DNA of 64,000 nucleotides, from assembly GCF_017348835.2 (NCBI RefSeq), contig NZ_CP072315.1, one strand, 5' to 3'. This DNA is from Escherichia coli. GTDB taxonomy: Bacteria > Pseudomonadota > Gammaproteobacteria > Enterobacterales > Enterobacteriaceae. Shown piece after piece: positions 16,937 through 19,862 of the stretch (position 1 is its first letter; the number at the start of each line of letters is the position of its first letter). The notes under the pieces were generated by a model. The model was not told where the DNA came from. It saw only the letters and a program-made list of their open reading frames with translations, and made no database searches. Both the position numbers and the translations under genes were made by a program.

Positions 16937-17368
16937 GTGATAACACAAACAGGCCCCTACAGCGTAAGGATTGTGATGGACGATAAAGAGCAGTTTACGA
17001 ATCTTGTGGCAAAGCATGCCTCCGGACTCACCGAAGAGCAGCTGGCCGGGTACGATGCCTGTTCCCTGGATGGTGAATGCGTCACGCCTTCATACGAGGT
17101 TTTCCGGGGGTATCGTACCCGCCACACACTGGATGAATTTCTGGAGATGGCCATATCGCTGAATGCCATCCACCCGGATGAATATTTAACGGATATGCTG
17201 CTGAAGCCTCATGAGGTGATCGGCGCTCTGGCCGATGAAGGCGACCAGCTGAACAACGCCACCCCGGTTTATTTCTTTCCGGATACCGGCGTCTATGCAG
17301 CGGCCGTTAGTGAAACCCGGGTGCTCGATGCCTGGCTTTGCTGGCCATGCTACCCGGCGAACTGGTAA
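16937..17368 (+). CDS. Hypothetical protein
   Basis: 143-aa ORF. Confidence 0.4.
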   Translation: MITQTGPYSVRIVMDDKEQFTNLVAKHASGLTEEQLAGYDACSLDGECVTPSYEVFRGYRTRHTLDEFLEMAISLNAIHPDEYLTDMLLKPHEVIGALADEGDQLNNATPVYFFPDTGVYAAAVSETRVLDAWLCWPCYPANW

Positions 17369-17439
17369 CGCGGCCGTTGGAATTGCACCGGCCGGATACG
17401 AATTTAACCGATCCCGTGGCGGGAAGGCTATCAGAGTTG

Positions 17440-17685
17440 CATGTCCTCATCCCTCAAGCCCCCTGCCAGGCCCCAACGTGCTGTCAGGCTTCGCCTGATT
17501 CCCGATCTGCGCCGATACTTCAGCCGATAACTTTTTGTTTTCTTTTTATTTTCTTCCCATTTCCTCAAAAATCGCGGGCGGCGTGGACAGGGCACCATTG
17601 CCGCATGTGGGGTCTTAATAAGGGCAGGGTGGTCAGTTTTGCTCGATGCCATGGGTAGGCCCTCCCCTTCATGGGATGAGGACAT
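17440..17685. repeat. Pair of perfect 15-bp inverted repeats flanking a non-coding segment
   Basis: GCATGTCCTCATCCC at 17440-17454 and its reverse complement GGGATGAGGACATGC at 17671-17685. Confidence 0.6.
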
Positions 17686-17840
17686 GCAAGTAAGCTAACT
17701 ATCTGAAATGACGAAGGTTCATTTGGTGAATGTCGCTTCATATTAATGTTGTGTCACTTATGATCGTATGTAGCTGGTTGCAAAGAGGAGCGATGAGACA
17801 ATAAAGTTGTATCGCTAACAAGATTTATGCTGCCACATAG

Positions 17841-17940
17841 TAACAGCCTAAAAGTTGTACGCCCTATTTAACAGCTTTTAGGCTGTTAATTTGATATTAC
17901 AGCTTTTAGGGTGTATGTTTAGGAAACAGCCTGCAAGGTG
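17841..17940 (+). promoter_or_regulatory. Four iterated operator-like motifs upstream of hipB
   Basis: ACAGC(C/T)TNNAAG-like motif at about 17842, 17871, 17899 and 17926, partly palindromic. Confidence 0.45.
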
Positions 17941-17968
17941 TATCAGAGGAAACTACTGAGGCCAGCTT

Positions 17969-18265
17969 ATGATCAATAATGATTACCCGTTAAACACGCT
18001 CAACCAGCTGCGTCCCTTGCTCATTGGTTTTCGCAAGGCGAATGGCCTGACGCAAAAAGACCTGTCCGAAAGGTTAGGCGTCACTCAACAGACATACTCA
18101 CGTCTGGAAGCCAACCCTGCCAGTGCGAGCATTGAACGGCTATTCAAGGTGTTTTCCATCCTGGGCGTAAAAATCAGCTTCTCCTCGGCAACCACCTCTT
18201 CAGAGAGGAAGCAGACGGAAGAAATGCTTAAATCAAACTCACCTGCACGACAGGAGGATTGGTAA
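17969..18265 (+). CDS. hipB: HipB-like HTH (XRE-family) antitoxin
   Basis: 98-aa ORF with HTH segment (LTQKDLSERLGVTQQTYSRLE) directly upstream of the hipA-like gene. Confidence 0.75.
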   Translation: MINNDYPLNTLNQLRPLLIGFRKANGLTQKDLSERLGVTQQTYSRLEANPASASIERLFKVFSILGVKISFSSATTSSERKQTEEMLKSNSPARQEDW

Positions 18266-18269
18266 CGAT

Positions 18270-19595
18270 ATGAGCCGGAAACAGCAACGTCTGGTAATTT
18301 GGATGAACGGCATCAAAGTCGGGTACTGGGAAAAAAGCAAAGGGGTAGACAGCTTAGAATACCTTCCTGAATGGGTTGCTGACGAACAGGGAAGGCCGCT
18401 GTCATTGTCCCTTCCTTTTACTCCCGGGAACCAGGTCTGGCGTGGAAATGTGGTACGTGACTATTTTGATAATTTACTGCCGGACAGCGAAGGCATACGC
18501 AGACGTCTGGCAATGCGTTACAAGGCCGATAGCCTGGAGCCTTTTGATCTGCTGACGGAGCTGGGAAAAGACTGCGTGGGCGCGATACAGCTGCTTCATG
18601 ACGGAGATGAACCCACTGATTTATATTCCGTGAAGTATCACCCGCTTACTGAATCAGAAATTGCGGCAACTTTGCGTAATACCACGGAGACATTGCTACC
18701 GGGCAGGCCAGAAGATAACGACGACTTACGTTTATCTATTGCCGGTGCTCAGGAGAAAACAGCCCTACTGTGGCATGAAGATCGGTGGTGTATGCCGGAG
18801 GGTAATACACCAACGACGCATATATTCAAGCTACCGCTCGGACTTGTGGGGAACATGAAAGCCGACATGAGCTCGTCGGTTGAAAATGAATGGCTCTGCT
18901 CGGTACTTCTCGGCCAGTACGGGCTCCCCGTGGCAAGAACGCAGATTGCTCACTTTGAAGATCAGAAAGCGCTGGTGGTAGAACGTTTTGACCGAAAATG
19001 GTCAGGAGACGGACAATGGATCATTCGTTTACCCCAGGAGGATATGTGTCAGGCCCTGGGCGTTTCGCCATTACGAAAATATCAGGCGGACGGCGGGCCA
19101 GGTATATCGGAAATTATGGAGGTTCTGAGTAATTCAGACCGTGCTGAGCGTGACAAAGCGCAGTTTTTTATGACGCAGATAATTTTCTGGATGATGGCCG
19201 CAACAGATGGCCACGCTAAAAATTTCAGTATTTCTATTGGGCCACAGGGACGTTATCACCTTACACCAAACTATGATGTGTTGTCGGCATGGCCGGTGAT
19301 CGGTCATGGGAACAATCAGATATCCTGGCAGAAGTGCAAACTGGCGATGGCCGTACGTGGCAGTAGCAACTATTACCAGATATATCGAATACAACGACGC
19401 CACTGGATCAGGCATGGTGAGATAACCGGCCTGAGTAAACAGCAGACAGAGGCGATGATAGAGGAAATCATCGCCAGAACCCCGGGTGTCATTGAACGTG
19501 TTAGCGGGCTTCTTCCGGACCAGTTCCCCCAGCAGCTTGCGGAAAGTATTTTTGATGGAATGAGGCAGCAATGCAGGCGCCTGGCTGAGAAATGA
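18270..19595 (+). CDS. hipA: HipA-like Ser/Thr kinase toxin
   Basis: 441-aa ORF, 4 nt after the hipB stop; N-terminal HipA-like coupling region and kinase-like core. Confidence 0.75.
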   Translation: MSRKQQRLVIWMNGIKVGYWEKSKGVDSLEYLPEWVADEQGRPLSLSLPFTPGNQVWRGNVVRDYFDNLLPDSEGIRRRLAMRYKADSLEPFDLLTELGKDCVGAIQLLHDGDEPTDLYSVKYHPLTESEIAATLRNTTETLLPGRPEDNDDLRLSIAGAQEKTALLWHEDRWCMPEGNTPTTHIFKLPLGLVGNMKADMSSSVENEWLCSVLLGQYGLPVARTQIAHFEDQKALVVERFDRKWSGDGQWIIRLPQEDMCQALGVSPLRKYQADGGPGISEIMEVLSNSDRAERDKAQFFMTQIIFWMMAATDGHAKNFSISIGPQGRYHLTPNYDVLSAWPVIGHGNNQISWQKCKLAMAVRGSSNYYQIYRIQRRHWIRHGEITGLSKQQTEAMIEEIIARTPGVIERVSGLLPDQFPQQLAESIFDGMRQQCRRLAEK

Positions 19596-19655: not shown

Positions 19656-19862
19656 ATGACTGAAGAACAAAAAAGAATAGAGCGGGCTATTGAGTTGGCT
19701 TGTCGTTACGGCGGAACCGATGAAATGCATCATCTGCAATGGGTCGTGGATCAGATGGTAAGAGAACTTGCTGGAGAACGTTATGCACAGATTGTAGCTG
19801 ATGCCACCAGCGGAGAAGATGGGCCTGATACTTACAAATGGAGTGTTGGGATCGCGCCTTAA
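19656..19862 (+). CDS. Hypothetical small protein
   Basis: 68-aa ORF. Confidence 0.35.
   Translation: MTEEQKRIERAIELACRYGGTDEMHHLQWVVDQMVRELAGERYAQIVADATSGEDGPDTYKWSVGIAP

What the first reader, a model, noticed from the sequence alone, without database searches (positions are those of the whole stretch)
17841..17940. Four iterated partly palindromic motifs upstream of hipB
ACAGCCTAAAAG, ACAGCTTTTAGGCTGT, ACAGCTTTTAGGG and ACAGCCTGCAAGG occur within 100 bp 5' of hipB. This resembles the multi-operator autoregulation known for E. coli hipBA, but with a different motif, suggesting a distinct HipB specificity.
Basis: partly seen in the sequence, partly recalled or inferred. Interest (0 to 1): 0.35.

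Follow-up and report, generated by a model that had tools for sequence, protein, structure and literature searches.

The report
HipB operator array on IncHI2 plasmid
Four evenly spaced palindromic DNA sites sit on the promoter of a plasmid toxin–antitoxin operon (hipBA) and are almost certainly where the antitoxin HipB binds to shut off its own operon; this is an ordinary kind of control, but the recognition sequence has not been described and is shared by a whole clade of HipB proteins.

Summary
Four 16-bp sites ACAGC-N6-GNTGT lie at 17843-17858, 17871-17886, 17899-17914 and 17926-17941, spaced 28/28/27 bp. They are the only matches in 64 kb (0.48 expected). They sit directly upstream of hipB (17969-18265) and hipA (18270-19595), on the backbone of IncHI2 conjugative resistance plasmids.

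In 78 other hipBA loci (HipA 59-81% identical, Enterobacterales to Betaproteobacteria), the same core (T)ACAG-N8-CTGT(A) recurs 2-6 times upstream of hipB. It is about 1000-fold enriched over the flanks and has a 27-bp period in 146 of 168 intervals.

The HipB recognition helix TQQ(T/S)Y is invariant in this clade; E. coli K-12 has KQATI and binds TATCC-N8-GGATA. One helix residue covaries with half-site position 5.

The sites overlap a sigma70-like promoter. O3 fills the -35/-10 spacer and O4 covers the predicted start.

Most likely mechanism: HipB dimers, probably with HipA, bind cooperatively and repress hipBA. The system has the same half-site geometry as K-12 (5-N8-5) with different half-site bases.

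Verdict: a new member of a known kind, of modest interest.

The parts
17843..17858 (+). Operator O1, ACAGCCTAAAAGTTGT (distal; one arm mismatch to ACAG-N8-CTGT)
   Evidence: equivalent site at about -127 from the hipB start in most Enterobacterales loci
17871..17886 (+). Operator O2, ACAGCTTTTAGGCTGT (perfect ACAGC/GCTGT palindrome), immediately upstream of the -35
   Evidence: equivalent site at about -100 in relatives
17891..17896 (+). Predicted -35 hexamer TTGATA, in the O2-O3 linker
   Evidence: TTGATA-17-TATGTT, 9/12; relatives have TTGCAT / TTGCAA / GTGCAT at the same linker position
17899..17914 (+). Operator O3, ACAGCTTTTAGGGTGT, filling the promoter spacer
17914..17919 (+). Predicted -10 hexamer TATGTT, starting at the last T of O3
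   Evidence: TATTGT / TATTAT / TAAAAT at the same place in relatives
17926..17941 (+). Operator O4, ACAGCCTGCAAGGTGT, over the predicted transcription start
   Evidence: proximal site at about -46 in relatives
17958..17961 (+). Shine-Dalgarno GAGG, 7 nt before the hipB ATG
   Evidence: read from the sequence
17969..18265 (+). hipB: 98-aa Xre/Cro-type HTH antitoxin-repressor; recognition helix T39-Q-Q-T-Y-S-R45; C-terminal Trp
18270..19595 (+). hipA: 441-aa Ser/Thr kinase toxin; equivalents of K-12 S150, K181, D309 and D332 conserved

Best explanation
The four sites are the operators of the IncHI2 plasmid hipBA operon. A dimer of the HTH antitoxin HipB binds each palindrome (T)ACAG-N8-CTGT(A), one recognition helix (TQQTYSR) per half-site. 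O2, O3 and O4 bracket the -35, fill the -35/-10 spacer and cover the transcription start. Occupancy therefore excludes RNA polymerase and the operon represses itself. The rigid 27-28 bp period implies that neighbouring bound complexes touch. This would give cooperative binding, probably with HipA bound to HipB as in the E. coli K-12 HipA-HipB-operator assemblies, so the toxin is held inactive on the DNA. If HipB is lost, by proteolysis or after plasmid loss, the promoter opens and HipA is freed.

Shown here: the sites, their statistics, their overlap with a promoter-like element, their co-inheritance with hipB, the invariance of the recognition helix and the conserved kinase residues.

Inferred: binding by HipB, repression, cooperativity, HipA participation and plasmid addiction.
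For: - The sites are unique in the window: 5 matches against 0.48 expected.
- hipB and hipA identities rest on Pfam domains and PDB matches: HipA matches K-12 HipA at E = 1e-100, HipB matches K-12 HipB at E = 1e-6.
- The promoter TTGATA-17-TATGTT has O3 in its spacer.
- In 78 further loci, exact ACAG-N8-CTGT occurs at 8.8/kb in the 200 bp upstream of hipB and 0.008/kb in 492 kb of flanks. The period is 27 bp in 146 of 168 intervals and 28 bp in 12. Loci carry 2-4 sites, one carries 6.
- ACA and TGT are invariant in 239 sites.
- Site positions relative to the hipB start and to -35/-10-like hexamers are conserved.
- The helix L-G-[VI]-T-Q-Q-[TS]-Y is invariant in 78 HipBs, against K-Q-A-T-I in K-12.
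- Residue 45 (R/Q/Y) covaries with half-site position 5: C 85%, degenerate, A 52%.
- Between two IncHI2 sub-lineages, homology starts 23 bp upstream of O1, and substitutions inside sites fall only in the central 6 bp.
- K-12 operators measured here are spaced 28/39/28 bp.
- The K-12 model is from the literature: cooperative HipB binding to TATCC-N8-GGATA (PMC3376134); HipA dimerisation within HipA/HipB/operator complexes (PMC7029023).
- All clade HipBs end in Trp, as K-12 HipB does (PMC3376134).
Against: - There is no binding, footprint, reporter or transcription-start data for this or any clade member in the searchable literature.
- The promoter call is a 9/12 consensus match, and the scan found 5 sites against 3.2 expected in the region.
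- The residue-45/position-5 covariation is confounded with phylogeny (R = Enterobacterales, Q = Burkholderiaceae, Y = Rhodocyclales/Gallionella).
- In Shewanella oneidensis, adjacent HipB operators bind without cooperativity (PMC4150777), so cooperativity cannot be assumed for every HipB.
- A 27-bp period puts neighbours about 206 degrees apart on straight B-DNA, so contact would require the DNA bending known for K-12 HipB.
Confidence: 0.88

Rival explanations
1. The sites are HipB operators, but each is bound independently (no cooperativity, no HipA-HipA contacts), as reported for Shewanella oneidensis HipB. The multiplicity only increases occupancy of the promoter.
For: ITC on single and double Shewanella operators showed no cooperativity (PMC4150777). 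Nothing here measures binding.
Against: The period is 27 bp in 146 of 168 intervals across loci whose linkers and site centres have diverged. Independent sites have no reason to keep a fixed spacing. The spacing matches the 28 bp of K-12 O1-O2 and O3-O4, where binding is cooperative (PMC3376134). HipA here is far closer to K-12 HipA (E = 1e-100) than to Shewanella HipA (E = 3e-21).
Confidence: 0.08
2. The repeats bind a different protein (a host or plasmid regulator, or IHF-like factor), and HipB regulates elsewhere or not at all.
For: No binding data exist. An IHF site is reported upstream of K-12 hip (PMC3376134). The sites are AT-rich in the centre.
Against: The array accompanies hipB in chromosomes and plasmids from Enterobacterales to Burkholderiales, with unrelated neighbouring genes. 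The only protein constant across these contexts with a DNA-binding domain is HipB, whose recognition helix is invariant. Orphan hipB genes without hipA keep two sites.
Confidence: 0.02
3. The repeats are plasmid maintenance DNA (iterons or a partition centromere) that happens to lie next to hipBA.
For: Iterated 16-bp units with a regular period on a large low-copy plasmid resemble iterons or parS arrays.
Against: The same arrays occur at chromosomal hipBA loci. They occur nowhere else in the window. They sit at a fixed distance from the hipB start and overlap its promoter.
Confidence: 0.01
4. The palindromes act as RNA or DNA hairpins (for example O2 as an intrinsic terminator insulating hipBA from upstream transcription) rather than as protein-binding sites.
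For: The terminator scan flags 17868-17889 (9-bp stem including O2, then TTTGATATTA).
Against: The stem has only 3 G-C pairs, and 2 terminator-like sites were found against 2.2 expected. Conservation shows invariant outer ACA/TGT with a free centre and no compensatory pattern, typical of protein recognition. Only O4 would be transcribed from the predicted promoter. There is no Rfam match.
Confidence: 0.01

Closest known systems
E. coli K-12 hipBA operators O1-O4 (TATCC-N8-GGATA x4) with HipB/HipA autoregulation
   Same: Gene order is hipB-hipA. There are four palindromic sites on the promoter. Half-site geometry is 5-N8-5 when the flanking T/A is counted. Neighbour spacing is 27-28 bp, as for K-12 O1-O2 and O3-O4 (measured). 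HipB is an Xre HTH protein with a C-terminal Trp. HipA kinase residues and the G22/D291 positions are conserved.
   Different: Half-site bases are TACAG, not TATCC. The recognition helix is TQQTYSR, not KQATISN. HipB is only 26% and HipA 41% identical to K-12. The period is uniform (28/28/27 here, 27 in the clade) rather than 28/39/28. The locus is on a conjugative plasmid.
Shewanella oneidensis MR-1 hipBA operators (GTGTA-N6-TACAC x4; PMC4150777)
   Same: Four iterated palindromes with equal spacing upstream of hipBA.
   Different: The Shewanella sites are separated by 34 bp and the fourth lies inside hipB. Binding is non-cooperative, and the HipA-HipB-DNA assembly differs from that of E. coli. 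HipA here is only distantly related to Shewanella HipA (E = 3e-21 against 1e-100 for K-12). No GTGTA-N6-TACAC site is present.
Caulobacter crescentus hipBA1/hipBA2 promoter inverted repeats (PMC7029023)
   Same: A series of inverted repeats noted by sequence inspection, at intervals said to fit the E. coli higher-order complex. Binding is also untested.
   Different: It is a different HipBA clade and motif. There the interest was cross-regulation between two chromosomal paralogues.
Plasmid-borne hipBA of Klebsiella michiganensis pPSKoxy4_2 (IncA/C; PMC11487325)
   Same: A hipBA on a large resistance plasmid, shown experimentally to be toxic, neutralised by hipB expressed from its native promoter, and to stabilise the plasmid. 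This supports the addiction role inferred here.
   Different: It is on a different plasmid family. Its operators were not analysed, and I could not obtain the sequence, so I do not know whether it belongs to the ACAG-operator clade.

Membership tests
HipBA type II toxin-antitoxin module | Toxin with HipA kinase domains (HipA_C plus the N-terminal Couple_hipA domain) | tested here: met
   PF07804 E = 3.6e-51 and PF13657 E = 3.7e-21; matches K-12 HipA structures at E = 1e-100
HipBA type II toxin-antitoxin module | Kinase catalytic and autophosphorylation residues (K-12 S150, K181, D309, D332) | tested here: met
   Equivalents S156, K187, D313 and D336 are present
HipBA type II toxin-antitoxin module | Upstream, co-oriented, closely linked Xre/Cro HTH antitoxin gene | tested here: met
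   hipB is an HTH_3 protein (E = 4.5e-15); 4 bp separate the hipB stop from the hipA start; best PDB match is K-12 HipB
HipBA type II toxin-antitoxin module | HipB C-terminal tail ending in Trp | tested here: met
   HipB ends ...RQEDW; all 78 clade HipBs end in W; W88 is described as universally conserved in PMC3376134
HipBA type II toxin-antitoxin module | HipA toxicity neutralised by HipB | not testable with these tools
   Needs expression experiments; shown for another plasmid hipBA in PMC11487325
HipB multi-operator autoregulation (E. coli K-12 type) | Several palindromic sites with fixed half-site spacing upstream of hipB | tested here: met
   Four sites (T)ACAG-N8-CTGT(A); K-12 has four TATCC-N8-GGATA sites
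HipB multi-operator autoregulation (E. coli K-12 type) | Sites overlap the core promoter | tested here: inconclusive
   Overlap with a predicted sigma70 promoter is conserved across relatives, but no transcription start has been mapped
HipB multi-operator autoregulation (E. coli K-12 type) | Operator sequence TATCC-N8-GGATA | tested here: not met
   There is no such site in the promoter region; this system has its own half-site, so it is a parallel member and not the same regulon
HipB multi-operator autoregulation (E. coli K-12 type) | HipB (and HipA-HipB) binds the sites and represses transcription, cooperatively | not testable with these tools
   Indirect support only: co-inheritance, invariant recognition helix and a rigid 27-bp period

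The most novel reading that the evidence does not exclude
The uniform 27-bp array of up to six sites supports a continuous HipA-HipB nucleoprotein assembly, in contrast to the paired 28/39/28 layout of K-12. In such an assembly toxin sequestration would scale with the number of occupied operators. In addition, the orphan hipB genes on IncHI1-type plasmids have the same recognition helix, two sites and no hipA, and could act in trans on the IncHI2 promoter or on HipA as cross-regulators or anti-addiction factors between co-resident H-group plasmids.
Probability: 0.15. Interest if true: 0.55.

Novelty: new member of a known kind. Interest (0 to 1): 0.3.

Why it matters
IncHI2 plasmids are major carriers of mcr-1, mcr-9, blaCTX-M and blaNDM. 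This hipBA lies on their backbone in about 1,200 sequenced plasmids and is routinely cited as a stability factor, yet it has never been dissected. Defining its operators gives a testable map for promoter, operator and addiction experiments. It also gives a recognition code, the helix TQQ(T/S)Y paired with the half-site TACAG, for a HipB clade spanning Enterobacterales and Betaproteobacteria. Finally, it predicts that the plasmid system is insulated from the chromosomal K-12-type hipBA of its E. coli hosts.

Tried and rejected
- I could not read the primary E. coli papers (Schumacher 2009 and 2015; Black 1994); none is held. HipB-DNA contact residues and HipA dimer-interface residues therefore come only from secondary accounts, or from memory where marked.
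- I could not place the K. michiganensis IncA/C hipBA in or out of the clade, because CP104451.1 is not in the collection.
- Rfam search of 17200-18300 found nothing at E <= 1, so a known RNA element is rejected.
- The relaxed core ACAG-N8-CTGT with one mismatch is not enriched window-wide (24 matches against 19 expected). The signal is the local cluster, not a dispersed regulon on this stretch of the plasmid.
The 16-mer is the right frame.
- The 253-bp inverted-repeat segment upstream is not a multicopy MITE: one copy per plasmid, IncHI2 only.
- The 68-aa ORF after hipA is not a third module component; it is absent from all 80 genomic loci.
- I did not use structure prediction or the large protein searches. 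They could not model protein-DNA specificity, and the genome-locus scan already gave the needed relatives.

Full report
**What is in the sequence**

Window 17843-17941 holds four 16-bp near-palindromes:
- O1, 17843-17858: ACAGCCTAAAAGTTGT
- O2, 17871-17886: ACAGCTTTTAGGCTGT
- O3, 17899-17914: ACAGCTTTTAGGGTGT
- O4, 17926-17941: ACAGCCTGCAAGGTGT

Written as ACAGC-N6-GNTGT, these are the only matches in the 64-kb window. That is 5 strand-matches against 0.48 expected, and none of 100 shuffles reached 5. Start-to-start spacing is 28, 28 and 27 bp. The centre is asymmetric (TTTTAG or its complement), so O1 and O4 read in the opposite orientation to O2 and O3.

Downstream features:
- A GAGG sits 7 nt before the ATG at 17969.
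- hipB (17969-18265) encodes a 98-aa HTH_3 protein.
- Four bases later, hipA (18270-19595) encodes a 441-aa protein with Couple_hipA and HipA_C domains.

The best solved-structure matches are E. coli K-12 HipB (E = 1e-6) and HipA (E = 1e-100). Global identity to K-12 is 26% for HipB and 41% for HipA. The equivalents of K-12 S150, K181, D309 and D332 are conserved, as are G22, P86, D88 and D291.

**Where it comes from**

The 2.1-kb segment is 100% identical to IncHI2/IncHI2A conjugative plasmids of E. coli and Salmonella, for example pSTM6-275, where it lies next to the ter tellurite-resistance operon. It occurs in 1,194 PLSDB plasmids and in 290 of 5,426 complete E. coli genomes, almost always on the plasmid.

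A 97.9%-identical variant occurs on Enterobacter and Klebsiella IncHI2 plasmids in a different upstream context. Homology begins at window 17820, 23 bp before O1. The few substitutions inside sites fall only in the central six bases. So the array belongs to the hipBA module, not to the plasmid sequence upstream of it.

**Comparative test**

A scan of one genome per species returned 80 loci with HipA relatives, 59-81% identical apart from L074, an identical partial (IncHI2-type) copy in Citrobacter. They include Citrobacter, Serratia, Brenneria, Rahnella, Yersinia, Burkholderia, Paraburkholderia, Caballeronia, Gallionella and Rhodocyclales. All but that partial copy were analysed, which makes 78 loci besides the window. 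Every one has a HipB homologue (39-70% identical) directly upstream.

- All but three of these loci carry 2-4 sites matching ACAG-N8-CTGT (one carries six) in the 200 bp before hipB. Typical positions are -127, -100, -73 and -46 from the start codon.
- The exact core occurs 134 times in 15,260 bp of upstream sequence (8.8/kb). It occurs 4 times in 492,472 bp of flanks (0.008/kb).
- The interval between neighbouring sites is 27 bp in 146 of 168 cases and 28 bp in 12.
- Over 239 sites, A1, C2, A3 and T14, G15, T16 never vary. G4/C13 are about 80-90% conserved, the flanks favour T (5') and A (3'), and the centre favours TATA. The clade consensus is T-ACAG-nnTATAnn-CTGT-A. Enterobacterales add an invariant C5.

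The site-picking rule allowed one mismatch in the eight core positions. The invariance of six of them is therefore an observation, not an artefact of that rule.

**The protein side**

Across the 78 HipBs the turn and recognition helix read L-G-[VI]-T-Q-Q-[TS]-Y-A-x-[LF]-E-A-N-P, with Q40, Q41 and E47 strictly invariant and Y43 in 77 of 78. K-12 HipB has I-G-I-K-Q-A-T-I-S-N-F-E-N-N-P.

Window residue 45 is the one variable position in the helix, and it tracks half-site position 5:

| Residue 45 | Loci | Half-site position 5 |
|---|---|---|
| Arg | 19 | C 85% |
| Gln | 30 | no preference |
| Tyr | 17 | A 52%, with a weaker G4 |

This fits direct readout, but it is confounded with phylogeny.

K-12-type (TATCC-N8-GGATA) and Shewanella-type (GTGTA-N6-TACAC) sites are absent from the window promoter. 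ACAG-type sites are absent from the K-12 hip promoter. By sequence, the plasmid and chromosomal systems are orthogonal.

**Relation to the promoter**

The consensus scan finds TTGATA (17891-17896), a 17-nt spacer, and TATGTT (17914-17919).
- O2 ends 4 bp before the -35.
- O3 occupies the spacer, and its last T is the first base of the -10.
- O4 starts 7 nt after the -10, where transcription should begin.

The same layout recurs in relatives. Enterobacterales have TTGCAT-17-TATTGT around the penultimate site. Burkholderia-type loci have GTGCAT ... TAAAAT, with the proximal site abutting the Shine-Dalgarno sequence. The promoter call itself is weak evidence: a 9/12 match, with 5 hits against 3.2 expected in the region. 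Its conserved register with the sites strengthens it.

**Mechanism proposed**

HipB dimers bind each palindrome and occlude RNA polymerase, giving negative autoregulation of hipBA. Established knowledge for K-12 is as follows:
- HipB binds four TATCC-N8-GGATA operators cooperatively. The HipA2HipB2 complex also binds and bends the DNA. The HipB C-terminal tail is a Lon degradation tag that ends in a conserved Trp (PMC3376134).
- HipA dimerises within HipA/HipB/operator complexes, and the hipA7 G22S change is thought to disturb this dimerisation (PMC7029023, PMC6581861).

I measured the K-12 operators at 28/39/28 bp start-to-start. The 27-28 bp period here equals the K-12 O1-O2 and O3-O4 spacing. 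With the flanking T/A the site is 5-N8-5, as in K-12.

A period held this rigidly, while linkers and site centres drift, argues for contacts between neighbouring complexes. This is an inference. By contrast, the Shewanella operators are separated by 34 bp and bind without cooperativity (PMC4150777).

The plasmid-addiction role is also an inference. It is supported by analogy with the K. michiganensis IncA/C hipBA, which stabilises its plasmid (PMC11487325).

**Rivals**

- Independent, non-cooperative HipB sites: about 0.08.
- Another protein binds the sites: about 0.02.
- Iterons or a partition centromere: about 0.01.
- Hairpin or terminator function: about 0.01.

The chromosomal occurrence of the array, its fixed register with hipB, the invariant helix and the pattern of conservation (outer triplets fixed, centre free, no compensatory changes) argue against the last three.

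**Novelty**

Multi-operator HipB autoregulation is textbook for K-12 and is described for Shewanella. Inverted repeats have also been noted in Caulobacter. I found no description of the ACAG-type operator, or of regulation of the IncHI2 hipBA, in the searchable literature. IncHI2 papers mention hipBA only as an annotated stability gene, and an Acidovorax study showed only a whole-promoter EMSA. The searchable library does not cover most subscription journals.

I class this as a new member of a known kind. It has its own recognition sequence and a more uniform array, and it is of modest interest.

Noticed in passing
L084 1540-2100 (pLEC-7c0d, typed IncHI1B/IncP), L085 1540-2103 (pZ1323SSL0010-2, typed IncHI1A), L086 1540-2100 (p4695_blaTEM-1B, MOBH plasmid typed IncFIA): Orphan hipB genes, 58-66% identical to the window HipB, with the same recognition helix (TQQTYARLEANP) and a C-terminal Trp. 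Each has only two ACAG-N8-CTGT-like sites, at about -87/-60. No hipA remnant was detected within 1.8 kb downstream by tblastn. They could cross-talk with the IncHI2 system or act as anti-addiction genes.
   Followed up: partly
L087 1-2094 (E. coli O6:H16 plasmid unnamed4): An IS5 transposase gene lies directly upstream of a hipB homologue. The operator/promoter region is gone, and the annotated hipB is N-terminally shortened.
   Followed up: no
L088 1680-3404 (Cronobacter sakazakii pCrono684-1, IncFIB): A complete hipBA relative (HipA 69%, HipB 55% identical) has four sites spaced 28/27/28 bp. The module and its array therefore also occur on F-type plasmids.
   Followed up: partly
window 17969-17974: RefSeq/PGAP annotates hipB as starting at ATC (17972), the codon right after an in-frame ATG (17969) that has a GAGG 7 nt upstream. 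The ATG is the more plausible start. The same annotation appears in both IncHI2 sub-lineages.
   Followed up: partly
window 17437-17689: A perfect 17-bp inverted repeat (TTGCATGTCCTCATCCC / GGGATGAGGACATGCAA) bounds a 253-bp segment in the unusually long (600 bp) intergenic region upstream of hipB. It is single-copy, found only on IncHI2 plasmids, unannotated and without an Rfam match. Its function is unknown.
   Followed up: partly
window 17690-17820: This is a breakpoint between IncHI2 sub-lineages. In Enterobacter-type IncHI2 plasmids, homology to the window starts at 17820. A piece matching 17600-17690 appears at a separate position in an Enterobacter asburiae plasmid (H35), and many records report a second matching place, which may be the same piece.
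   Followed up: no
window 19656-19862: A 68-aa ORF (WP_000134171.1, no Pfam domain) lies 60 bp after hipA in both IncHI2 sub-lineages. It is absent from the genomic hipBA loci apart from L074 (a Citrobacter contig with an identical IncHI2-type copy), so it is plasmid backbone and not a third module component.
   Followed up: yes
L020 2800-3000 (Yersinia thracica): This is the only locus with six consecutive sites at a strict 27-bp period (-190 to -55). It would be the best natural substrate for testing a continuous higher-order assembly.
   Followed up: no
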